Positions 1,070 through 62,828 of a stretch of DNA of 64,000 bases are shown piece after piece (the stretch's first letter is position 1; each line of letters begins with the position of its first letter). The DNA lies in assembly GCA_964504715.1 (NCBI GenBank), contig CAZDEP010000006.1, positions 4,748-68,747 on the forward strand, in the 5' to 3' direction. Under the pieces are notes generated by a model that was not told the origin of the DNA, did no database searches, and saw only the letters and a program-made list of their open reading frames with translations. This DNA is from an uncultured Candidatus Saccharibacteria bacterium. GTDB taxonomy: Bacteria; Patescibacteriota; Doudnabacteria; UBA920. The translations under genes and the position numbers were made by a program.

Positions 1070-2335
1070 ATGAATAACAACTTGTCAGGCCCAATTCCGG
1101 AAGGCGGCGGCTCCACCAGGGGTGCATCAAAGAAAGTTTGGGCAATTTTTACATTCATCCTCATAATTGCAAGCTACAATTTGGGCCACAAAGCCGGCGA
1201 AAAAGGTTTTGTTTTAGAACCCAAAGAATTTAAGGTAATAAGCCGGAATGACGCGCCGCAGGCGGTAAACTATGGGCTTTTGTGGGACGCGATTAAAGTC
1301 GTCCAGGATAAATATATAGACAAAAAGCCCACGGATTTGGAATTCTTGTACGGAGCCGCCCGCGGCGCCGTGGCCTCCACCGGCGACCCTTACACTTCTT
1401 TTTTCCCGCCCAAGGAACTGCAAAGTTTTAAGACGGATTTGGCCGGGGAGTTTGACGGCATTGGGGCGGAAATTGGCAAAAAGGACGGGAATATTGTTGT
1501 TGTTGCCCCTTTGGAAGATTCGCCCGCGCAAAAGGCGGGGCTTAAAGCTCAGGATATTGTTTACAAGGTGGACGGGCAGGTAGTTTTAGACTGGACAGTG
1601 GAAGACGCAGTATCAAAAATCCGCGGTAAAAAAGGTACACAGGTAACTTTAACTCTGGTTCGGCAGGGCAAGAGCGAGCCGTTTGACGTAGTAATCACGC
1701 GCGACAAAATTGAAATCAAAAGCGTAAAATGGCAATTTAAGGAAGTCGACAGCAACGGCGTTAAAAAAACCGTTGCGGTTTTAAGCATCTCCAAATTCGG
1801 TGACGATACGGAAGGGCTGTTTGCAAAAGCGGTAAACGAAATCTTGAGCCGTAAAGTAGACGGCATAATTGTAGATTTGCGGAACAACCCGGGCGGATAT
1901 TTGCAGACTTCGGTTGAATTGGCCTCCGAATGGGTAAAACAGGGAGATGTGGTTGTGACCGAAGCCAGAAGCTCGGGGGAAAACCAGGTTTATAAAGCTT
2001 CAGGCAATAACCGGTTGGCTTCTATTCCCACCGTTATCCTTATAAATGGCGGCAGCGCCTCGGCATCGGAAATTTTTTCCGGCGCTTTGCACGACCACAG
2101 TTTGGCAAAGCTGGTGGGTGAAAAATCATTCGGCAAAGGCAGCGTGCAGGAACTGGTGGAATTGCCCGAAGGCGGCGCGGTAAAGGTTACCATTGCCAAA
2201 TGGATTACCCCCGGCGGCAAGAATTTAAACAAAGACGGCTTGGTCCCCGACGTGGAAGTAAAGTTTACCGACCAGGATTTAGCGGCGGGCAAGGACCCGC
2301 AAATGGAGAAAGCTTTGGAAGAAATAACCAAATAG
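1070..2335 (+). CDS. ctpA: Carboxyl-terminal processing protease (S41 peptidase with PDZ domain)
   Basis: PDZ segment (GIGAEIGKKDGNIVVVAPLEDSPAQKAGLKAQDIV), S41 catalytic motifs (DLRNNPGGYL, GSASASEIF) and an N-terminal membrane anchor. Confidence 0.85.
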   Translation: MNNNLSGPIPEGGGSTRGASKKVWAIFTFILIIASYNLGHKAGEKGFVLEPKEFKVISRNDAPQAVNYGLLWDAIKVVQDKYIDKKPTDLEFLYGAARGAVASTGDPYTSFFPPKELQSFKTDLAGEFDGIGAEIGKKDGNIVVVAPLEDSPAQKAGLKAQDIVYKVDGQVVLDWTVEDAVSKIRGKKGTQVTLTLVRQGKSEPFDVVITRDKIEIKSVKWQFKEVDSNGVKKTVAVLSISKFGDDTEGLFAKAVNEILSRKVDGIIVDLRNNPGGYLQTSVELASEWVKQGDVVVTEARSSGENQVYKASGNNRLASIPTVILINGGSASASEIFSGALHDHSLAKLVGEKSFGKGSVQELVELPEGGAVKVTIAKWITPGGKNLNKDGLVPDVEVKFTDQDLAAGKDPQMEKALEEITK

Positions 2336-2411
2336 ATCACAAATACACGAATACCACCAATATCACTAATCTGATATTTGTGCAATTTGTGCAATTTGTG
2401 CATTAGTGATC
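2336..2411. repeat. Imperfect inverted repeat built from tandem 9-bp CACNAAT units (locus A)
   Basis: Left arm atcacaaat acacgaata ccaccaata tcactaat; right arm atttgtgca atttgtgca atttgtgca ttagtgatc. Arms pair at the conserved cac/aat positions of every unit. Confidence 0.8.
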
Positions 2412-5759: not shown

Positions 5760-5789
5760 TCACGCAAATCGCCTAAAATAACGGCGGAA

Positions 5790-5893
5790 TGTCAAATCCC
5801 AAATATCAAATATCAAATGAAATCCAAATGCCAAAAGGTTAAAGTTTGCAGGTTTGGAGGTATTTGAAATTTGTCATTTGTAATTTGAAATTT
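5790..5893. repeat. Imperfect inverted repeat of tandem 7-bp CAAATNN units (locus C)
   Basis: Left arm gtcaaatcc caaatat caaatat caaatgaaatc caaatgc; right arm tttggaggt atttgaa atttgtc atttgta atttgaa attt. It directly abuts the start codon of the next gene. Confidence 0.75.
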
Positions 5894-5895
5894 TT

Positions 5896-7647
5896 ATGAT
5901 CCCCAGTATATACATAAACTTGGATGATGACGTCGCGCGAGTAGTTGCGAGGCTCAAGAAAACCCAGGCTGACAAGCTGGTTTTGGTTTGTCCCAAAAGG
6001 TGTCAGCTTTTTTCAGACAGCATAAATTTAAGGCTGCTTAAAAAACAGACCGACTTCCTCAAAAAAGAAGTTTATATTTTAACCATGGACGAGCGCGGCC
6101 AGCTTTATGCCAAAGAAGCGGGCTTTGGGCTTAAGTTTTTACCTAAAGGGAAAAACCCTTCGGCCTTTTCGGATATCCAGGTTCAGCATAAGCCGACTGC
6201 AGTTGAGCCCAAGGAATTTGGCGCAGCTTTGGCTGACAAAGTTAAAGAAGCAAAGAATTTTGTAAGCGAATTAGTCGCGTTGCCCAAAACTCAAACCCCT
6301 AAGCGAACGGAATTTAAAACCCAAGACCCGGCTAACTCAACAGCCAAAACGAGAAGCAATTTAAAGAAACCTTTGGCTCGTGCGCCTAAAATTTCCGAAG
6401 ATTTAATGCTTCCTAAAAACAGCGTTGCGAACGAGTTTTTTGAGCATTCCGCCAGTTATCCCGCCGAAGAGTCGGAAAATATAAAAAAGCCAGGTCGGCG
6501 TTGGCTCTTTAGTTTAAGCCTGGCTGCATCCCTGATTGTCGTTATGGCCTTAATTTTTGTGGTTTTACCGGCGGCCGCAGTAGATGTCTATCCTAAAACT
6601 GAACCTGTAACCCGGGATTTTGACGTGAGTTTGGACCTTAACGCCAAGCAAGCTGATGAGACCCGGTTGGTTTTGCCTGCGTCAAAAGTCGAGCAAACGC
6701 TGGAAACCTCGGCAAAATTCCAGAGTCAGGGCAAAAAAGACGTGGGAGCAAAGTCGGCCGGTTCGGTAATAATATATAATTTTACGGGACAAATATTAAA
6801 CTTGAAGGCTGCCACCACGGTAATTTCGGCTGGCAATAAAACTTATACCTTGGCTGAAGACGCCATGCAGATTAAGCCCACCAAGTACAAAAACGCGGTA
6901 ACCAAGGAAATTGACCCCGCCAGCTTAAACAGCCCTTTTGAAATTTTGGCGCAGGCCGCGGGGGAAGATTCGAATTTGCCCGCCGGCGTTAGGATGGAAA
7001 TAGCCAACCAAGTGTTCGGAAGCCGGCCGCAATTGGTATACGCAAAAACCGAAACACCGGTAAGCGGAGGGACTTCCAGGTTTTTATCGCTGGTTTCGGA
7101 AGGCGATTTGGCGGCGGCACAGGACCAGCTGGGCAAAAACCTGCTTTCCCAAGTTCAGCAGGCGTTGTCGGCAAGCCGTCAGCAATTAACTGAAAATTCT
7201 TACCGGCTGGAAGTTTTATCCTTTACGGCCGATAAGCAGGTTGGCACCGAAAGTCCGAGCTTCAACGCCACCCTCAAAGCCAAAGTTGTAGGCTTGGCTT
7301 TTTCTGAAGAAATGCTAAAAGAGTTGTTGGCCAAAAGAATCGGCCAAAATTTGTCGGAAAACCGCAAGCTAAGTTTGGGTAAAGATTTCAGCATGACTTA
7401 TAAAATTAAAACCGTGGATTTAAATATTCCTTCTGCTGTTTTGAGCGTGCATTTTGAGGGGAAAACCCAAATGAAGGTGGAAACTCAAAAATTGCCGGAA
7501 AGTTTGTTGGGCAAAACCAAGAATCAGGCCCGCGACGTTTTGGAATCCATGCCGGAAATTGAACGTGTAGATGTTACTTTAAGCCCGTCATGGCAAAAAA
7601 ACTTTCCCTGGTTTGTGGGAAAAATAAAAGTTAAGGTTATAGAATAA
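5896..7647 (+). CDS. Hypothetical single-pass membrane protein (583 aa)
   Basis: Long ORF with an internal hydrophobic helix (LFSLSLAASLIVVMALIFVVLPAAAV); no recognisable catalytic motif. Confidence 0.5.
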   Translation: MIPSIYINLDDDVARVVARLKKTQADKLVLVCPKRCQLFSDSINLRLLKKQTDFLKKEVYILTMDERGQLYAKEAGFGLKFLPKGKNPSAFSDIQVQHKPTAVEPKEFGAALADKVKEAKNFVSELVALPKTQTPKRTEFKTQDPANSTAKTRSNLKKPLARAPKISEDLMLPKNSVANEFFEHSASYPAEESENIKKPGRRWLFSLSLAASLIVVMALIFVVLPAAAVDVYPKTEPVTRDFDVSLDLNAKQADETRLVLPASKVEQTLETSAKFQSQGKKDVGAKSAGSVIIYNFTGQILNLKAATTVISAGNKTYTLAEDAMQIKPTKYKNAVTKEIDPASLNSPFEILAQAAGEDSNLPAGVRMEIANQVFGSRPQLVYAKTETPVSGGTSRFLSLVSEGDLAAAQDQLGKNLLSQVQQALSASRQQLTENSYRLEVLSFTADKQVGTESPSFNATLKAKVVGLAFSEEMLKELLAKRIGQNLSENRKLSLGKDFSMTYKIKTVDLNIPSAVLSVHFEGKTQMKVETQKLPESLLGKTKNQARDVLESMPEIERVDVTLSPSWQKNFPWFVGKIKVKVIE

Positions 7648-7733
7648 TTTTTTCCTTTTATTTATGAGGTTTTTTGCTTGCCTCCATTTAGTTGACAAAA
7701 AAACTTTAATGTTATAGACTTATTGAAGTTTTA

Positions 7734-7997
7734 ATGGAGAAAGATATTAATACTAGCACTCAAGACTTTAGGAAGTCTTCCCAAAAAAAGGATATAATAG
7801 AGCTTGAGGGCAAGGTCGTTGAGAACTTGCCTAATGCTGTTTTTCGTGTCCAACTACAGTCGGGGCAGGTTGTTTTGGGGCATTTGTCGGGGAAGATGAG
7901 GGTAAATATGATCAAAGTTTTACCCGGCGACAAAGTTATTATTGAAATGACCCCCTACGATTTAAGCAAGGGGAGAATTACCAGAAGATTAAGATAG
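7734..7997 (+). CDS. infA: Translation initiation factor IF-1
   Basis: S1-like IF-1 signature ([20 protein letters not shown] ... [30 protein letters not shown]). Confidence 0.85.
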
Positions 7998-8099
7998 ATC
8001 GCAAATTCACCAATACCACAAATAGCACTAATTTTTTTCAAAAATAGAGATCTGAAATTAGTATTTGTGGAATTTGTGAAATTTGTGCATTAGTGATCA
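7998..8099. repeat. Imperfect inverted repeat of 9-bp CACNAAT units (locus B)
   Basis: Left arm atcgcaaat tcaccaata ccacaaata gcactaat; right arm attagtatt tgtggaatt tgtgaaatt tgtgcatta gtgatcac. It ends 3 nt before the rpmJ ATG. Confidence 0.8.
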
Positions 8100-8102
8100 C
8101 CT

Positions 8103-8216
8103 ATGAAAGTAAGAGCATCAGTCAAGCCAATTTGTAAAAAATGCAAAGTAATAAAACGCTTTGGCAGGATTTATATTATTTGCGAAAATCCAAAGCATAA
8201 GCAGAGACAAGGCTGA
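8103..8216 (+). CDS. rpmJ: 50S ribosomal protein L36
   Basis: 37-aa [40 protein letters not shown] with the CxxC...C...H zinc ribbon; below the size cut-off of the ORF track. Confidence 0.85.
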
Positions 8217-8229
8217 TAAACTGACAAGA

Positions 8230-8275
8230 TTGACAAAATTGAACAAAAATAAACCGCAGTCAAAATTTTGTCAAT
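8230..8275 (+). promoter_or_regulatory. 11-bp inverted repeat (ttgacaaaatt / aattttgtcaa) in the rpsM leader, candidate S4 translational operator or promoter element
   Basis: Perfect 11-bp arms flanking a 22-nt loop immediately upstream of the first gene of the alpha operon. Confidence 0.35.
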
Positions 8276-8310
8276 TTAATTTAAATTTTTAAATTTTGTT
8301 CAATTAAATT

Positions 8311-8700
8311 ATGGCTAGAATTGCTGGAATAAACATCCCCAACGAAAAAAGAATTGAAGCGGCTTTGCCGTACATTTATGGCGTCGGTTTGCCGCTCGCC
8401 AAAAAAATTCTTTCCGCGACAAACGTTGATCCTAACAAAAGGACCAAAGATTTAAGCGAAACCGAAGTCAACCGTATACGCGAATATATTGAAAAGAATT
8501 TTAAAGTGGAAGGTGAGCTTAAGCAGCAAGTCCTGTTGAATATAAAAAGGCTCAAAGAAACCGGTTCTTATCGAGGTTTACGGCACATAAGAGGCCTTCC
8601 GGTTAGGGGCCAGCGGACCAAAACCAATTCCCGCACCCGCAGGGGTAACGTAAGAAAAACAGCCGGGTCGGGTAGGAAAAACGCGTCGGAGAAAACCTAA
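8311..8700 (+). CDS. rpsM: 30S ribosomal protein S13
   Basis: [26 protein letters not shown]... Confidence 0.95.
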
Positions 8701-8775
8701 TCAAAATTACAAATTAACAATATAACAAAATAACATGTTATATTGCTATCTTGTTTAATTGTTAAATTAAATTAA

Positions 8776-9915: not shown

Positions 9916-9981
9916 TCTTTTAATCCTTCATCCTTAATTTTCGTTAAAGATTAAGGATTAAACATTAACTATATTAAAACT

Positions 9982-11338: not shown

Positions 11339-11425
11339 ACTGGCGCTTCGCGCCCCCGATCAACAAGAACGCGTTGTTACAAGTTTAATTTTAAATCCGC
11401 GCTATCTGCGTATCAGCGAAAATTT

Positions 11426-12470: not shown

Positions 12471-12475
12471 TTTTA

Positions 12476-12508
12476 AAACCGTTCCGCTGTAAGCGGGACG
12501 GTTTTTTT
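12476..12508 (+). terminator. Rho-independent terminator after rpsI
   Basis: Hairpin ccgttccgctgtaagcgggacgg followed by a T-run. Confidence 0.7.
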
Positions 12509-24020: not shown

Positions 24021-24086
24021 CCCCTCAAACCTTTTGCACTACTGTACCTGCCTGCCCTGCCTACCGGCAGGCAGGCGGTAGGCAGG

Positions 24087-24209: not shown

Positions 24210-24494
24210 TTATTTGTAAAATTTTTCCAAAACCAGGCGGAAACCACCTTTTTTGTTTGCCAATTCGCGGGCGCCGCGATTAACGGTCGCCACACTCACC
24301 TTGAGCTGTGTGGCAATTTCGCGATGTGGGACCGCGGCCTGGAGCCTCTTGATGATTTGCCAGCGGACGGCCAGTTCGCGGTATTCGGCGGGTGACAGTA
24401 TATCAAATAAAAATTCCCTCATCAGAGCCTTGTCTTTGCCAATTTTGCCCACCAATCCTTCTAGTTCTGCCCCATATTCGTGTTTATATTGCAT
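24210..24494 (-). CDS. TrpR/YerC/YecD-family transcriptional regulator
   Basis: Trp-repressor-like helix-turn-helix (HREIATQLKVSVATVNRGARELANK); about 94 aa. Confidence 0.7.
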   Translation of the reverse strand: MQYKHEYGAELEGLVGKIGKDKALMREFLFDILSPAEYRELAVRWQIIKRLQAAVPHREIATQLKVSVATVNRGARELANKKGGFRLVLEKFYK

Positions 24495-24510: not shown

Positions 24511-24528
24511 TAGTGTACTAGTACACTA
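24511..24528. promoter_or_regulatory. 18-bp perfect palindrome tagtgtactagtacacta (trp-operator-like ACTAGT core) over the regulator's own promoter
   Basis: Lies 17-34 nt upstream of the regulator's start codon and overlaps a minus-strand TTGACG -35 / TAGTGT -10. Confidence 0.6.
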
Positions 24529-24594: not shown

Positions 24595-24606
24595 CGTACT
24601 AGTACG
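24595..24606. promoter_or_regulatory. 12-bp palindrome cgtactagtacg abutting a TTGACA -35 box on the + strand
   Basis: cgtactagtacg ggtg TTGACA, 17 nt, then TATGTT. Confidence 0.5.
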
Positions 24607-24941
24607 GTGTTGACAATGGGACGCAGAGAGAGTATGTTTTATTCATATGGAAAATTTGGTGGCTAAAAACAATATTGCAGTTTGGTGGGGTTTGCAGACT
24701 TTCGCAAAGCCCGGTGTTTTTAGCTGACTTTTTCAGTCTCCCGATAGTTGCTTTTAACCACCTTTTGGCTTTTTGCGAAAGGTGGTTTTGTTTTGGCTGT
24801 TTTTAACATCTCGATCAAATTTGCGTATTAGCCTGCCTGCTGGCAGGTATGCTAATGCAAATGGATGTTGTTGGCAGCCAGCACAAATCCACATGGCAGG
24901 ATAAACAAGCGTGCTGGCTTGCCTGCAAAGAAGGAGGTGCG

Positions 24942-25212: not shown

Positions 25213-25222
25213 GTACTAGTAC
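25213..25222. promoter_or_regulatory. Third GTACTAGTAC palindrome at the right edge of the island
   Basis: acgtactagtac immediately followed by the right terminal inverted repeat. Confidence 0.45.
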
Positions 25223-25695
25223 AGTAGTGCAAAAGGCGCGGGGGTGGGGAGGGTTATGGGTATATTTACCCTTTTTAGTTTACTTGGAGCATGTAGGGAG
25301 GGTTTGTGCCCAGTTGGGTGCTTTATAGTTACTGCTTGAGAGAATGTAATTTATTGAGTTTTTAGGCTCGATAAATCGAGCGACTACAAGATCATTGGAA
25401 ATTGAAATTATAATTATAATGTTGATTGCTATTGACAGCATTGGTCGGGCTGGTATAATACAGTAAGTATGAATAAATTATCGCAAAATTTCTGGTATTT
25501 CTTTTATTTTTTTACTGGCCTGCTTGGAACCAGGAATTTTGAGTTTAATCCACAGATACACATATTGCACAGATAACACTGAACAAAGGATTCAACGTAA
25601 AACTCCCGGCTTCAAGCGAAGCCGGTTTTTTGTTTACCAATACAATATAATAGCAAACAATCCGCCGAAGCGTCTGGCGTAGGCGGGTGTTATTT

Positions 25696-39649: not shown

Positions 39650-39753
39650 GCTTTGCATATCTCTACGAAATACTAAAACTCTTATATAATCATTGTTATT
39701 TAATTTATTTCGTATTTAGTATTTCGTCCCTTTAGTATTTAGTAGAAGAACCT

Positions 39754-54953: not shown

Positions 54954-55265
54954 ATGCTACTTTTTGCGCTAGGCTTTATTATAGGTTTAGGATCGGGTTG
55001 GCTAATATCCAAATACTCGACCGGCCAGCCGCTAATAGGACACTTTGTACAAAATCAGGTAGAAACCCGCAAAAAACATTTGGATGCCGTTTTGGCCCTG
55101 TCCGCAAGGCAGGCAAAAATTACCAACGACGACGTGCAGCGCGAACTAAAAGTCAGTGACGCCACAGCCACCAGGTATTTGGAAACATTGGCTGAATTCG
55201 GACAGCTAACCCGCGTGGGCCAAAGAGGTCAAAGCGTCTATTATACATCACAAGTACACAGATAA
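54954..55265 (+). CDS. Membrane-anchored winged-HTH protein
   Basis: N-terminal TM (LLFALGFIIGLGSGWLI) then an HTH (ITNDDVQRELKVSDATATRYLETLAEFGQL). Confidence 0.45.
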   Translation: MLLFALGFIIGLGSGWLISKYSTGQPLIGHFVQNQVETRKKHLDAVLALSARQAKITNDDVQRELKVSDATATRYLETLAEFGQLTRVGQRGQSVYYTSQVHR

Positions 55266-55266
55266 C

Positions 55267-55402
55267 ACATCACAAATACATAAATCACAGTAGACCACGG
55301 CAATCGGTATGGCATAAATAGATTGCTTCGGATGCACTCGCAATGACATTATCGAAACTTATAGCGTTTGTGTAATTGGTGATATTGGTGCATTTGTGAT
55401 CA
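55267..55402. repeat. CAAAT-family inverted repeat (locus G) with a central conserved motif
   Basis: Left arm catcacaaat acataaat cacag...; right arm gtgtaattg gtgatattg gtgcatttg tgatc. The centre is aaatagattgcttcggatgcactcgcaatgaca. Confidence 0.7.
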
Positions 55403-55516
55403 GAATAATTTATGTTTAACAACCGAAAACTTATAAACAAAATAATGCAGGTTTTGGCCGTAATAATAATTGCCACAACCGTAATTATGCTTTTTGGTCC
55501 GGCGTTTTTAAATTAG

Positions 55517-62178: not shown

Positions 62179-62223
62179 AGCTTGAATTAAGAATTATGAA
62201 TTAAGAATCAAAATTTTTATTCT

Positions 62224-62301
62224 TTCACTAATGCACAAATGGCACAAACAGATAAAATACTGCAATTAGGTGATATCAGTGGAATTTGTGTATCAGTGGA
62301 C
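62224..62301. repeat. CAAAT-family inverted repeat (locus H) in the atpB-atpE spacer
   Basis: Left arm cactaat gcacaaat ggcacaaac; right arm attaggtga tatcagtgg aatttgtgt atcagtgg. Confidence 0.7.
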
Positions 62302-62384
62302 GAGTAAATTAATTTAGCACGCAAGACGACGTTAAATAACAACAACAAATACCGTCGATCGACCGTGAAAGAAAGGTTAGCACT

Positions 62385-62603: not shown

Positions 62604-62697
62604 TTGAGTGATTTTAGGTTTACCGATACACGTGCTTGTGCGAGTGTCATCGCGAGGAGACAAAGGGCCTTATCTTTGTCGACGTGGCGATCTTTTA

Positions 62698-62757
62698 GCA
62701 AAATAGATTGCTTCGCTTTTCAGATGAAGCCCTGAAAAACTCGCAATGACACAAATA
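62698..62757. repeat. Second copy of the aaatagattgcttcg ... ctcgcaatgaca motif with a CAAAT-family tail, in the atpE-atpF spacer
   Basis: gcaaaatagattgcttcg[cttttcagatgaagccctgaaaaa]ctcgcaatgacacaaatagataaatac; compare 55311-55353. Confidence 0.6.
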
Positions 62758-62828
62758 GATAAATACTTACCCGTGTCTATCTAGCTAGTATAGTATTCGG
62801 TAAACCAATGAATCATTAAATATACACT

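What the first reader, a model, noticed from the sequence alone, without database searches (positions are those of the whole stretch)
2336..2411. CAAAT/CACNAAT oligomer arrays arranged as imperfect inverted repeats in many intergenic spacers
Several spacers carry the same construction. A left arm holds 3-6 tandem units with a 7- or 9-bp period and a conserved CAC-AAT / CAAAT core (cacaaat, cactaat, caccaat, tcaaat). A right arm holds the reverse-complement units (atttgtg, attagtg, attggtg). The arms pair at the conserved positions of each unit (about 7 of 9) and mismatch at the variable ones.

Loci:
- 2336-2411, after ctpA; it contains the upstream TTG that begins the alaS track ORF.
- 5790-5893, after pgi; it abuts the next start codon.
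- 7998-8099, after infA; it ends 3 nt before the rpmJ ATG.
- 55267-55402.
- 62224-62301 and 62740-62775, in the atpB-atpE and atpE-atpF spacers.

This is not CRISPR: the units are too short and contiguous, with no spacers. It is also not a simple Rho-independent terminator: the stems are 30-40 bp, periodically mismatched and lack a T-run. The arrangement resembles REP/MITE/RPE-type small palindromic elements, or arrays of protein-binding iterons. Their position immediately 5' of start codons would let them affect translation initiation or mRNA stability.
Basis: seen in the sequence. Interest (0 to 1): 0.7.

Follow-up and report, generated by a model that had tools for sequence, protein, structure and literature searches.

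The report
Repeat-built hairpins filling gene spacers
Many gaps between genes in this tiny uncultured bacterium (Candidatus Doudnabacteria) hold long imperfect hairpins whose two arms are runs of 7-10-base repeats, much like the known cyanobacterial heptamer (STRR) repeat hairpins but not reported for this group in the papers I could search.

Summary
Four spacers (2335-2411, 7997-8098, 55268-55401, 62211-62315) carry one family: a 5' arm of CACNAAT units and a 3' arm of ATTNGTG units, with a 9-nt period. There are 12 two-unit matches against 0.41 expected. 5788-5892 has the same build from a different 7-nt unit. 62740-62775 is not a member.

The construction is not tied to one unit. At least four more spacers here, and most spacers of 60-155 nt in seven related Doudnabacteria contigs, hold hairpins built from other units.

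Families are multi-copy and lineage-specific. Copies are present, absent or replaced at orthologous spacers. Retained copies have arms more conserved than loops or flanking genes, and unit number changed symmetrically in both arms.

They lie inside co-directional gene strings. They start 0-3 nt after a stop codon and end 2-11 nt before the next start. The genome shows no Shine-Dalgarno signal. They are not terminators, CRISPR or any Rfam family.

Best reading: STRR/REP-like dispersed palindromic repeats acting as stem-loops between cistrons (translational coupling or mRNA stability). Function is inferred only. CACNAAT hairpins also occur in Bacteroidota. Moderately interesting; a new variant of a known kind.

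The parts
2335..2411 (+). CACNAAT-family hairpin, copy 1, in the spacer between the ctpA-like gene (S41 peptidase) and alaS. Left arm 2335-2370 has 4 units (CACAAAT, CACGAAT, CACCAAT, CACTAAT). Loop 2371-2375. Right arm 2376-2411 is ATTTGTG x3 plus ATTAGTG. It starts at the G of the TAG stop and ends 3 nt before the ATG at 2415.
   Evidence: z -4.6; in-register E -19.5 kcal/mol. The ortholog in L130 has one unit fewer in each arm.
7997..8098 (+). CACNAAT-family hairpin, copy 2, in the infA to rpmJ spacer. Left arm 7997-8032, 30-nt loop 8033-8062, right arm 8063-8098. It starts at the G of the TAG stop and ends 4 nt before the ATG at 8103.
   Evidence: (z -5.0). Arms are identical in L009 while the loop differs. 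Replaced by a CGCTGAT/CACAGAT hairpin in L003 and L005-L008. Absent in L130 and L133.
55268..55401 (+). CACNAAT-family hairpin, copy 3. Left arm is about 55268-55305 and right arm about 55364-55401. The arms are separated by a 58-nt insert that contains a second palindromic module (AATAGATTGCTTCG ... CTCGCAATGACA, 55317-55350). It lies 2 nt after the stop at 55265 and 10 nt before the ATG at 55412 of a 34-aa ORF.
62211..62315 (+). CACNAAT-family hairpin, copy 4, more diverged (CACTAAT, CACAAAT, CACAAAC / ATCAGTG, ATTTGTG, ATCAGTG). The core is 62224-62301.
   Evidence: (z -3.8).
5788..5892 (+). Hairpin of a separate family with 7-nt (T/C)CAAAT units. Left arm 5788-5828, right arm 5853-5892 (ATTTGA/ATTTGT units). 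It ends 3 nt before the ATG at 5896.
   Evidence: TRF period 7 on both arms; z -3.4; IR z 9.7. The orthologous spacer also holds unit-array hairpins built from other units in L130 and L135 (IR z 5.7-5.8) and visibly in L257 and L259, where the inverted-repeat z is only 1.4 and 2.4.
8229..8304 (+). Hairpin of the TTGACAA(G/A)A unit family (about 9-nt period), in the rpmJ to rpsM spacer.
   Evidence: The same family occurs in L257, L260 and L003-L010. Eight of the 10 differences between the window and the 99.7%-identical contig L004 fall in this spacer, and the other two lie in the first 26 nt of rpsM.
8704..8768 (+). Hairpin with 8-nt units (ACAAATTA / ACAATATA / ACAAAATA against their complements), in the rpsM to rpsK spacer.
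   Evidence: z -4.0; IR z 5.2.
9919..9962 (+). Hairpin with 7-nt units (TAATCCT, TCATCCT / AAAGATT, AAGGATT), in the rpsD to rpoA spacer.
   Evidence: (z -4.9). Arms are conserved in L003 and L130 while the loop differs.
39662..39746 (+). Hairpin-forming array with 7-nt TATTTAG/TATTTCG units: 5 copies on the right at 39706-39744, paired with CGAAATACTAAA on the left.
   Evidence: IR z 3.7.
62740..62775 (+).
   Evidence: (no match here).

Best explanation
These are small dispersed palindromic repeats of the short-tandem-repeat kind. Each is an imperfect inverted repeat whose two arms are arrays of 2-6 units of 7-10 nt.

Where they sit: the genome is a Candidatus Doudnabacteria (Patescibacteria/CPR) genome. 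The hairpins occupy the spacers between co-directional genes, including almost every junction of the infA-rpmJ-rpsM-rpsK-rpsD-rpoA string. Several unit families coexist. CACNAAT with a 9-nt period is the one expanded in this lineage.

Proposed working (inferred): each hairpin is transcribed within a polycistronic mRNA and folds into a 25-40-column stem interrupted every 3-7 bp. The stem starts 0-3 nt after the upstream stop codon and ends 2-11 nt before the downstream start codon. The genome does not use Shine-Dalgarno sites. The stem would therefore occlude the landing region of the downstream start and hold stop and start codons next to each other. A ribosome terminating upstream melts the base of the stem, so downstream initiation is coupled to upstream translation. 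The stem could also protect the upstream cistron from 3' exonucleases.

The periodic, conserved mismatches keep every perfect helix at 7 bp or less. This would make the stem easy for a ribosome to unzip and a poor substrate for RNase III. It would also make the DNA a poor target for palindrome-destabilising nucleases.

Units are gained and lost by slippage, and selection keeps the two arms matched. How families spread between spacers (transposition, or recombination of spacer cassettes) is not resolved.
For: SHOWN.
1. Architecture and significance. Both arms of a hairpin share one period. Period 7 is commonest, then 9, 8 and 10. 30 of 52 arms exceed the 95th percentile of shuffled arms.
2. The construction does not depend on the unit. 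Unrelated units (TCAAAT, TTGACAAGA, TAATCCT, GAATTAT, CAAGAAT, AGGTTC, TATTTC, TTAACAA, CGCGGAT, CTTTATAAA) build the same structure in the window and in L130, L133, L135, L257, L259 and L260.
3. Geometry: the stem fills the spacer. The gap after the stop is 0-3 nt and the gap before the start is 2-11 nt for five of the seven strongest window hairpins (2336, 7998, 8701 and 55266, with 7998 taken in register; plus 5760 on the 3' side only).
4. No Shine-Dalgarno use: 5 of 63 genes have an SD-like 4-mer at -18..-4 against a 13% background. Upstream regions are 73% A+T.
5. Distinct from terminators, which exist in canonical form at 12475-12505.
6. Constraint. Window against L009: 0 of 79 arm positions differ, against 6 of 23 loop positions (p 7e-5) and 15 of 211 flanking coding positions (p 0.014). 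Window against L130: about 2 substitutions in about 58 arm nt, while flanks are 75-80% identical. The rpsD-rpoA arms are identical in L003 with a changed loop.
7. Arms stay matched. L130 lacks exactly one unit in each arm of the ctpA-alaS hairpin. In the pgi-downstream spacer the unit differs between window (ATCAAAT/ATTTGA) and L130 (CCAATAT/ATTGG), and it changes in both arms together.
8. Persistence of the architecture. Across the 10 syntenic junctions in 8 lineages, spacers under 30 nt hold no scorable hairpin, and most spacers of 60-155 nt score z > 3. The rpsD-rpoA junction has a hairpin in 7 of 8 lineages and rpmJ-rpsM in 7 of 8 (one borderline at z 2.4-2.7 in each row), built from different units.

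FROM THE LITERATURE. Cyanobacterial STRR heptamer hairpins between hupS and hupL have been proposed to raise transcript stability or confer translational coupling (PMC2670836). Heptamer arrays abutting start codons occur in RBS-poor regions of Beggiatoaceae, Cyanobacteria and Bacteroidetes (PMC4679880).
Against: - There are no expression data. Transcription through the hairpins, RNA folding and any effect on translation are all inferred.
- There is no RNA-strand signature. The + and - strands fold equally well. ssDNA parameters also give significant hairpins. G.U exceeds A.C only weakly among non-Watson-Crick oppositions (33 against 19), and most mismatches are transversion-type (111).
- Bases that do not pair (N and inter-unit positions) are also conserved between orthologs. 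A purely structural role does not require that.
- The hairpins are dispensable. L133 and L260 run the same operon with 1-19-nt spacers.
- Copy 4 (62211-62315) lies 70 nt from the next start, and the Bacteroidota copies also occur between convergent genes, so stop-start bridging cannot be the whole story.
Confidence: 0.45

Rival explanations
1. These are selfish, non-autonomous mobile palindromic elements (MITE- or REPIN-like) with no host function. They accumulate in the few permissive sites of a compact genome, namely the nucleotides between a stop and the next start. Their arm sequences are kept because a trans-acting transposase or recombinase must recognise them.
For: - Families are multi-copy and lineage-specific. 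CACNAAT is found only in the window lineage, L009/L010 and L130. TTGACAAGA and CGCGGAT dominate L257. TTAACAA dominates L135.
- Copies are present, absent or replaced at orthologous spacers.
- There are nested insertions: a palindromic module lies inside the loop of copy 3 and recurs at 62702, and a 20-nt palindrome indel lies inside an arm in L003 relative to L005.
- Paralogs share termini (GATCAC.AAT.CAC ... GTG.ATT.GTGATC) and differ only at non-core positions.
- The elements are dispensable in L133 and L260.
- A Y1 (HUH) transposase gene exists in relative L260.
Against: - No target-site duplication and no alignable empty/filled pair was found.
- No transposase was found among the 10 window ORFs scanned.
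- The L260 Y1 gene is flanked by an unrelated inverted repeat.
- No match to the two-arm CACNAAT pattern was found in 2.9 million viral contigs.
- Orthologous copies are held in place and nearly unchanged across 12-25% flank divergence. That needs continued selection at fixed sites.
- Mosaic contigs (L009/L010) show that spacers move by homologous recombination of flanks, which needs no transposase.
Confidence: 0.25
2. For the CACNAAT family, the arrays are binding sites for a sequence-specific oligomeric protein on DNA (iteron-like) or on RNA (TRAP- or CsrA-like periodic recognition). The hairpin potential would then be a by-product of head-to-head site arrays.
For: - Constraint is concentrated on the CAC and AAT cores. 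Paralogs differ at about 1 of 48 core positions against 6 of 24 non-core positions, p 0.005.
- Orthologs conserve even unpaired bases.
- The mismatch positions are the same in copies 1 and 2.
- There is a strong polarity rule. The CAC-type array precedes the GTG-type array in 4 of 4 window copies and in 17 of 18 Bacteroidota/Chloroflexota copies. Hairpin formation alone does not require this.
Against: - The identical architecture is built from at least ten unrelated units in the same and related genomes. This would need a different protein for each.
- A 9-bp spacing does not place sites on one face of B-DNA (my inference).
- No candidate binding protein is linked to the copies.
- Unit number changes symmetrically in both arms, which points to pairing between the arms.
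Confidence: 0.12
3. This is a neutral mutational by-product. Replication slippage expands short units, and fold-back or template switching copies one arm onto the other. AT-rich spacers therefore drift into repeat-built palindromes with no function.
For: - Heptamers are the commonest long simple-sequence-repeat unit in prokaryotes, attributed to polymerase slippage (Mrazek 2007 as summarised in PMC4679880). Period 7 is also commonest here.
- Right-arm units are often identical neighbours (ATTTGTGCA x3).
- Turnover is fast and there is strain-level variation.
Against: - Arms are more conserved than loops and than flanking coding DNA.
- Mismatch positions are conserved rather than corrected.
- Left-arm units are all different yet are retained unit for unit in orthologs.
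- Both arms keep equal unit numbers.
Confidence: 0.1
4. They are transcription terminators or attenuators of an unusual, T-run-less type.
For: They are stable stem-loops directly after stop codons. Some Bacteroidota copies lie between convergent genes.
Against: - None is picked up by the terminator scan, and there is no T-run. The stems are AT-rich and mismatched.
- Canonical GC-rich terminators with T-runs exist at the ends of gene strings in the same window, for example 12475-12505.
- The hairpins sit between nearly all genes of a conserved ribosomal-protein operon. The only strong promoter-like site there is upstream of infA at 7692-7720.
Confidence: 0.03

Closest known systems
Cyanobacterial STRR (short tandemly repeated repetitive) heptamer sequences that form hairpins in intergenic spacers, e.g. 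hupS-hupL
   Same: Tandem units of about 7 nt lie in intergenic spacers of operons and can form a hairpin. They occur at many loci and differ between strains. The same functions have been proposed: transcript stability and translational coupling (PMC2670836). The host lineages use Shine-Dalgarno sites rarely (own knowledge for cyanobacteria; for this genome).
   Different: The phylum is different (Patescibacteria/CPR). The units are different; the STRR1-3 units CCCCAGT, TTGGTCA and CAACAGT (recalled from memory) do not occur here. Periods of 8-10 nt occur as well as 7. The inverted-pair arrangement is the rule here rather than the exception. Mismatches are periodic and conserved.
TAACTGA heptamer direct-repeat arrays of Beggiatoaceae, Cyanobacteria and Bacteroidetes (MacGregor 2015, PMC4679880)
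   Same: These are intergenic arrays of 2-6 or more short units ending within a few nt of a start codon. They lie in regions without canonical ribosome-binding sites, including ribosomal-protein operons. They are absent from the orthologous spacer of close relatives. The same unit is shared across phyla.
   Different: Those arrays are direct only (169 direct sets and one indirect), so they are not hairpins. One heptamer dominates there, whereas many unit families occur here. Single-strand protein binding was proposed there; a stem-loop is proposed here.
REP/BIME elements and REPINs (REP doublets forming hairpins, mobilised by RAYT Y1 transposases; PMC3116915 listed but not read here, own knowledge otherwise)
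   Same: These are extragenic, imperfect palindromes of about 60-110 nt, multi-copy and lineage-specific. They lie between co-directional genes. Their arms are more conserved than their loops. mRNA-stabilising roles are known for REP.
   Different: The arms are not single REP motifs but arrays of 7-10-nt units. There is no GTAG-type conserved 5' tetranucleotide. No linked RAYT was found. There are tens of unit families rather than one to three.
Bacterial MITEs (Correia/NEMIS, RUP, Nezha, ERIC)
   Same: These are small non-coding elements with inverted-repeat ends. They are dispersed, polymorphic between strains, sometimes nested, and can modulate neighbouring gene expression.
   Different: No target-site duplication and no parent insertion sequence was found. 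Complementarity runs the whole length and is built of tandem sub-repeats rather than terminal inverted repeats only.
Long simple sequence repeats (LSSR, units 5-11 nt; Mrazek 2007 as summarised in PMC4679880; PMC4692102)
   Same: The unit sizes match (7 commonest). The distribution across taxa is sporadic. Slippage-driven copy-number change is common to both.
   Different: LSSR are defined as single direct arrays. Here two arrays of complementary units face each other and co-vary.

Membership tests
STRR / LSSR-type intergenic short tandem repeats | Head-to-tail arrays of three or more copies of a 5-11-nt unit (7 typical) | tested here: met
   TRF finds period 7-9 arrays at 2376-2402, 5788-5835, 5862-5893, 8063-8087, 8218-8248, 8702-8768, 9944-9968 and 39706-39744. 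Arm autocorrelation exceeds the shuffle 95th percentile in 30 of 52 arms.
STRR / LSSR-type intergenic short tandem repeats | Intergenic location at many loci, variable between close relatives | tested here: met
   All copies lie in spacers. Presence, absence or replacement is seen in orthologous spacers.
STRR / LSSR-type intergenic short tandem repeats | Ability of facing arrays to form a hairpin, as in the hupS-hupL STRR | tested here: met
   RNA z is -3.4 to -5.0. DNA z is -4.0 to -4.6 for the 2333-2414, 7995-8102 and 5786-5895 hairpins, but only -1.2 for 62208-62318. Inverted-repeat z is 3.5-9.7.
STRR / LSSR-type intergenic short tandem repeats | Cyanobacterial host and the canonical STRR1-3 unit sequences | tested here: not met
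   The host is Candidatus Doudnabacteria by the source names of S13 homologues. The units are CACNAAT, TCAAAT and others. I therefore file it as the same kind, not as the named STRR families.
REP / REPIN | Extragenic imperfect palindrome, multi-copy, often as an inverted doublet forming a long hairpin | tested here: met
REP / REPIN | Conserved family-specific motif (GTAG-type 5' end) recognised by a RAYT | tested here: not met
   The termini are GATCAC.AAT, with no GTAG. Each spacer family has different ends.
REP / REPIN | A RAYT (Y1 transposase) gene in the genome, flanked by the same REPs | tested here: inconclusive
   None was found among the 10 window ORFs scanned, but the rest of the window's ORFs and the rest of the genome were not scanned. 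A Y1_Tnp gene in relative L260 is flanked by an unrelated inverted repeat, GGTGTCAGGTAC/GTACCTGACACC.
MITE | Terminal inverted repeats | tested here: met
   The arms are inverted repeats over their whole length.
MITE | Target-site duplication flanking the element | tested here: inconclusive
   No direct repeat is evident at the ends of copies 1-3. No closely related empty site was available for alignment. Relatives lacking a copy are only about 75% identical in the flanks.
MITE | A related autonomous insertion sequence with the same ends | not tested
   Only 64 kb of the genome was available. No transposase was found in the ORFs scanned.
RPE (Rickettsia palindromic elements) | Insertion in frame inside protein-coding genes | tested here: not met
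   All copies are between genes.
Intrinsic (Rho-independent) terminator | Short GC-rich stem followed by a T-run | tested here: not met
   None of the hairpins appears in the terminator-like list. A canonical example is found at 12475-12505.
CRISPR array | Repeats of 23-55 nt separated by unique spacers of similar length | tested here: not met
   The units are 7-10 nt and contiguous.
Iterons / protein-binding site arrays | One repeated recognition sequence bound by a cognate protein | not testable with these tools
   Binding cannot be tested. The many unrelated units sharing one architecture argue against a single binder. The core-specific conservation of CACNAAT keeps it open for that family.
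Any Rfam RNA family | Match to a curated covariance model | tested here: not met
   There is no hit at any hairpin at gathering threshold. At E <= 1 there are only chance-level miRNA-precursor hits. Flavo-1 hits in the Flavobacterium loci lie elsewhere.

The most novel reading that the evidence does not exclude
Repeat-built hairpins may be a cross-phylum class of modular elements between cistrons in bacteria that lack Shine-Dalgarno-led initiation (Patescibacteria, Bacteroidota, and perhaps Cyanobacteria and large sulfur bacteria). In this reading they serve as stop-to-start bridges. The stem holds the next start codon closed until a terminating ribosome opens it, and it lets the ribosome re-initiate across a 60-150-nt spacer. 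The conserved periodic mismatches tune how easily the stem unzips. The near-universal 'CAC arm first' polarity and the sharing of CACNAAT/CACNGAT units between Doudnabacteria and Flavobacterium would then reflect either a shared recognition factor or horizontal spread of the elements.
Probability: 0.15. Interest if true: 0.7.

Novelty: new variant of a known kind. Interest (0 to 1): 0.45.

Why it matters
CPR bacteria have genomes of about 1 Mb with very short spacers, yet this lineage spends 60-150 nt at many gene junctions on these structures.

If they couple translation or set mRNA half-lives, they would be a main layer of operon regulation in organisms that have few regulators and no Shine-Dalgarno sites.

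They would also give a testable function for the long-unexplained heptamer and STRR repeats of cyanobacteria, Bacteroidota and sulfur bacteria.

Practical points:
- They mislead gene callers. The alaS ORF is extended into the right arm from TTG 2378.
- They are recombination or variation hot spots between near-identical strains.
- They are lineage-specific markers.

Tried and rejected
1. RNA-strand test. Folding the + and - strands of 23 spacers gave similar energies and z-scores. G.U against A.C oppositions were 33 against 19, with 111 transversion-type mismatches. This does not separate RNA from DNA.

2. Start-codon hiding idea (5' arms free of ATG/GTG/TTG). The total is 30 against 53, but per hairpin it is 12 fewer, 9 more and 5 equal. 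The effect comes from the CACNAAT family alone, so it is rejected as a general rule.

3. Metagenome scan with ATTNGTGCATTNGTGATC. The pattern was too degenerate for 241 million records and the 120 returned rows were almost all chance coding matches. Only L153, L214, L222, L224 and L253 were useful; they show CACGAAT-unit hairpins in GC-richer unknown bacteria. The capped scan was largely wasted.

101 of 119 hits are plain tandem repeats, many of them coding.

5. The viral-contig scan for the two-arm pattern gave 0 hits.

6. Rfam gave no family.

7. Pfam on 10 neighbouring or unknown ORFs found no transposase and no obvious repeat-binding protein.

8. I compared the units by eye with the DnaA box, CRP/FNR half-sites, the Bacteroidetes -7 promoter box and rut sites. 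The resemblances are partial only and were not pursued. The TTGACAA family does contain the -35 hexamer, and the promoter scan flags some arms. I treat this as incidental.

9. Literature. I found no description of such hairpins in Patescibacteria or CPR in the held library. The Elhai 2008 paper on small dispersed repeats was not available.
Full report
SOURCE AND SETTING. The window is 44% G+C with nearly all genes on the + strand. Homologues of its ribosomal protein S13 at 88-91% identity are named Candidatus Doudnabacteria or Patescibacteria group bacterium by their sources. Contigs essentially identical to the window recur in independent assemblies (L001, L002 and L004), so the features are not assembly artefacts. 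Pfam labels on syntenic contigs confirm the gene order: S41 peptidase (ctpA-like), alaS, a PGI-like gene, a 583-aa protein, infA, (rpmJ), rpsM, rpsK, rpsD, rpoA, rplQ, rplM, rpsI.

The sequences at the listed coordinates are as described. The two-unit pattern ATTNGTGNNATTNGTG, allowing 1 mismatch, occurs 12 times against 0.41 expected. The 8-nt-spaced outer pair occurs 8 times against 0.28 expected. All of these lie in four spacers. As RNA, copies 1, 2 and 4 fold with z of -4.6, -5.0 and -3.8, and the TCAAAT hairpin folds with z -3.4.

CAC pairs with GTG and AAT pairs with ATT. The central N and the one or two inter-unit bases stay unpaired. This gives 27 Watson-Crick pairs plus 1 G.U in 36 columns, with in-register energies of -19.5 and -19.8 kcal/mol.

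Corrections to the finding:
- 5788-5892 is a separate 7-nt family.
- Copy 3 (55268-55401) is split by a 58-nt insert.
- Copy 4 extends to 62211-62315.
- 62740-62775 is not an array. It belongs to a nested palindrome at 62604-62828.
- The alaS start is the ATG at 2415, not the TTG at 2378.

IT IS A GENERAL PROPERTY OF THE SPACERS, NOT ONE REPEAT. A unit-agnostic scan shows that 7 of 24 window spacers of 40-160 nt carry a long imperfect inverted repeat at z >= 3, against 2 of 48 coding controls. Further examples are 8229-8304, 8704-8768, 9919-9962 and 39662-39746.

In the window plus three syntenic relatives I found 26 such inverted repeats. The two arms of a hairpin share the same period. Period 7 is found in 23 arms, 9 in 8, 8 in 7 and 10 in 6. 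Thirty of 52 arms exceed the 95th percentile of shuffled arms for periodicity.

The units are unrelated from spacer to spacer. They include TCAAAT, TTGACAAGA, TAATCCT, GAATTAT, CAAGAAT, AGGTTC, TATTTC, TTAACAA, CGCGGAT, CTTTATAAA and CCAATAT.

COMPARATIVE BEHAVIOUR. Families are lineage-specific and multi-copy:
- CACNAAT occurs at four loci in the window, at the same infA-rpmJ spacer in L009 and L010, and at ctpA-alaS in L130. It does not occur in L133, L135, L257, L259 or L260.
- L257 instead has 5-6 TTGACAAGA arrays and 8 CGCGGAT arrays in 17.6 kb.
- L135 has TTAACAA arrays.

At a given junction, lineages carry the same hairpin, a hairpin from another family, or none. For infA-rpmJ:
- window, L009 and L010 have CACNAAT;
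- L003 and L005-L008 have CGCTGAT/CACAGAT;
- L135, L257 and L259 have three further families;
- L130 and L133 have spacers of 14 and 5 nt with no hairpin.

Across 10 junctions in 8 lineages, spacers under 30 nt hold no scorable hairpin, and most spacers of 60-155 nt score z > 3.

L009 and L010 combine the window-type infA-rpmJ spacer with the L003-type rpmJ-rpsM spacer. Spacers are therefore shuffled by recombination in the conserved flanking genes.

EVIDENCE OF CONSTRAINT.
- Window against L009: 0 of 79 arm positions differ, against 6 substitutions plus an indel in 23 loop positions and 15 of 211 positions in flanking coding DNA. The Fisher p values are 7e-5 and 0.014.
- Window against L130: flanks are 75-80% identical, yet the ctpA-alaS hairpin has about 2 substitutions. 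It has lost or gained exactly one 9-nt unit in each arm.
- The rpsD-rpoA arms are identical in L003 while the loop changed.
- Paralogous copies 1 and 2 differ at 7 positions. Six are N or inter-unit positions, and one makes a G.U pair. None breaks a CAC or AAT core (p 0.005).
- In the pgi-downstream spacer the unit differs between the window and L130, and it differs in both arms together.

The arms are thus kept complementary and, for CACNAAT, kept in sequence. The mismatch positions are conserved rather than corrected.

WHERE THEY SIT AND WHAT THEY ARE NOT. The stems begin 0-3 nt after the upstream stop codon and end 2-11 nt before the next start in five of the seven strongest window hairpins. 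The genome shows no Shine-Dalgarno signal: 5 of 63 genes against a 13% background, with upstream regions 73% A+T.

Canonical terminators exist elsewhere. One lies at 12475-12505 after rpsI, and others are visible at about 37075 and 41570. None of the hairpins scores as one. A good sigma-70-like promoter lies upstream of infA at 7692-7720. This fits an operon that reads through the hairpins.

No Rfam family matches. No transposase was found among the ORFs scanned.

MECHANISM: WHAT IS INFERRED. I commit to stem-loops between cistrons, acting in translational coupling and/or mRNA stabilisation, as set out under Best explanation. My confidence is about 0.45. It rests on geometry, lack of Shine-Dalgarno sites, conservation of complementarity, and the proposals already made for STRR hairpins.

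I rate 'selfish palindromic element' at 0.25 and 'protein-site arrays' at 0.12. These are not mutually exclusive with the best reading: REP elements are both mobile and co-opted (own knowledge).

The weak points are:
- There are no expression data.
- There is no RNA-strand signature.
- Unpaired bases are conserved.
- The hairpins are dispensable in L133 and L260.

BEYOND THIS LINEAGE. Most are plain tandem repeats. Eighteen have an inverted CACNAAT array within 160 nt. Sixteen of those are in Bacteroidota (Flavobacterium, Prolixibacteraceae, Saprospiraceae, Prevotella, Paludibacteraceae) and one is in Anaerolineae.

Seventeen of the 18 have the CAC-type arm first, as do all four window copies. 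Because a palindrome reads the same on both strands, this is a real arrangement bias and not a strand effect. The copies are intergenic. Several fill 11-19-nt margins between co-directional genes, and three lie between convergent genes. Flavobacterium spacers also carry GCAGATT, CACGAAT, CACTAAT and CACAGAT units like those in Doudnabacteria.

COMPARISON WITH WHAT IS KNOWN. The closest known kinds are these:
- Cyanobacterial STRR heptamer hairpins (PMC2670836).
- TAACTGA direct-repeat arrays abutting start codons in RBS-poor regions of Beggiatoaceae, Cyanobacteria and Bacteroidetes. These are absent from orthologous spacers of relatives (PMC4679880).
- Heptamer repeats near Nostoc start codons (bioRxiv 10.1101/2022.06.06.494920).
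- LSSR in general.
- REP/REPIN and MITEs, by behaviour.

It differs in four ways. The inverted-pair arrangement is systematic. Many unit families occur, with periods of 7-10 nt. The periodic mismatches are conserved. The host phylum is different. I found no description for Patescibacteria in the held library, but that library is incomplete.

Verdict: real, and a new variant of a known kind. Function is unproven. Interest is moderate.

Noticed in passing
window 8232-8336 (against L004): Contig L004 is 99.7% identical to the window over 3067 nt. All 10 differences fall within 105 nt: 8 in the rpmJ-rpsM spacer hairpin and 2 in the first 26 nt of rpsM. This looks like a very short imported recombination tract or a hypervariable spacer. 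The changes are not compensatory for the main helix.
   Followed up: partly
L009 and L010 against the window and L003 (infA-rpmJ and rpmJ-rpsM spacers): These contigs are mosaic. They carry the window-type CACNAAT hairpin after infA but the L003-type TTGACAAGA hairpin after rpmJ. This implies recombination breakpoints inside the 114-nt rpmJ gene.
   Followed up: partly
The RNA MFE is -79 kcal/mol with z -8.3, the most structured spacer in the window. It looks like several palindromic modules inserted into one another.
   Followed up: partly
window 55317-55350 and 62702-62751: A second palindromic module, AATAGATTGCTTCG ... CTCGCAATGACA, occurs twice. One copy sits inside the loop of CACNAAT copy 3. 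The 14-mer is identical in both places.
   Followed up: partly
window 24056-24075 and 24832-24847; L003 against L005 in the infA-rpmJ spacer: There are GC-rich mini-palindromes of the form CCTGCC...GGCAGG (3 matches against 0.08 expected). A 20-nt CCTGCTTGCCGTCAGGCAGG insertion/deletion sits exactly between two units of a hairpin arm in L003 relative to L005. L003 also has a CCGCC...GGCGG mini-palindrome inserted in the rpsK-rpsD spacer. These may be very small mobile repeats.
   Followed up: no
window 24210-24494 (- strand), with 24515-24524, 24596-24605 and 25213-25222: One of the few - strand genes encodes a Trp-repressor-family protein (PF01371, E 2e-15). Three exact GTACTAGTAC palindromes (0 expected) lie around it, and they resemble the E. 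coli trp operator half-site. This is probably an autoregulated TrpR-like repressor with its operators.
   Followed up: partly
whole window, gene starts: There is no Shine-Dalgarno signal. Five of 63 genes have an SD-like 4-mer at -18..-4 against 13% at random positions. The 20 nt upstream of starts are 73% A+T against 56% for the window.
   Followed up: yes
L260 13661-14332: A 223-aa Y1 (HUH) transposase gene (PF01797) in a related Doudnabacteria contig is flanked by the inverted repeat GGTGTCAGGTAC / GTACCTGACACC. It looks like an IS200/IS605- or RAYT-like unit, and its repeat is unrelated to the unit-array hairpins.
   Followed up: no
L011-L129 (e.g. L104 7449-7506, L114 7734-7856, L079 731-848, L068 4243-4295): The same CACNAAT/ATTNGTG 9-nt-period hairpins occur in Flavobacterium and other Bacteroidota and in one Anaerolineae MAG. 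Seventeen of 18 have the CAC arm first. Neighbouring spacers carry GCAGATT, CACGAAT and CACTAAT arrays.
   Followed up: partly
window 25545-25585: There is a solo direct array of CACAGAT/CACATAT/CACTGAA units with a 9-nt period and no inverted partner. It lies in the long spacer upstream of a tRNA gene.
   Followed up: no
window 8270-8343: There is a sub-threshold Rfam match to the Alpha operon ribosome-binding site (RF00140): 26.3 bits against a gathering score of 38, E 0.009. It overlaps the rpsM start and the right arm of the rpmJ-rpsM hairpin.
   Followed up: no
window 11339-11425 against L130 13001-13087: The rplQ-rplM spacer is about 88% identical between the window and L130, although the flanking genes are about 75% identical. 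It holds no repeat-built hairpin. It may be a conserved leader for rplM-rpsI.
   Followed up: no
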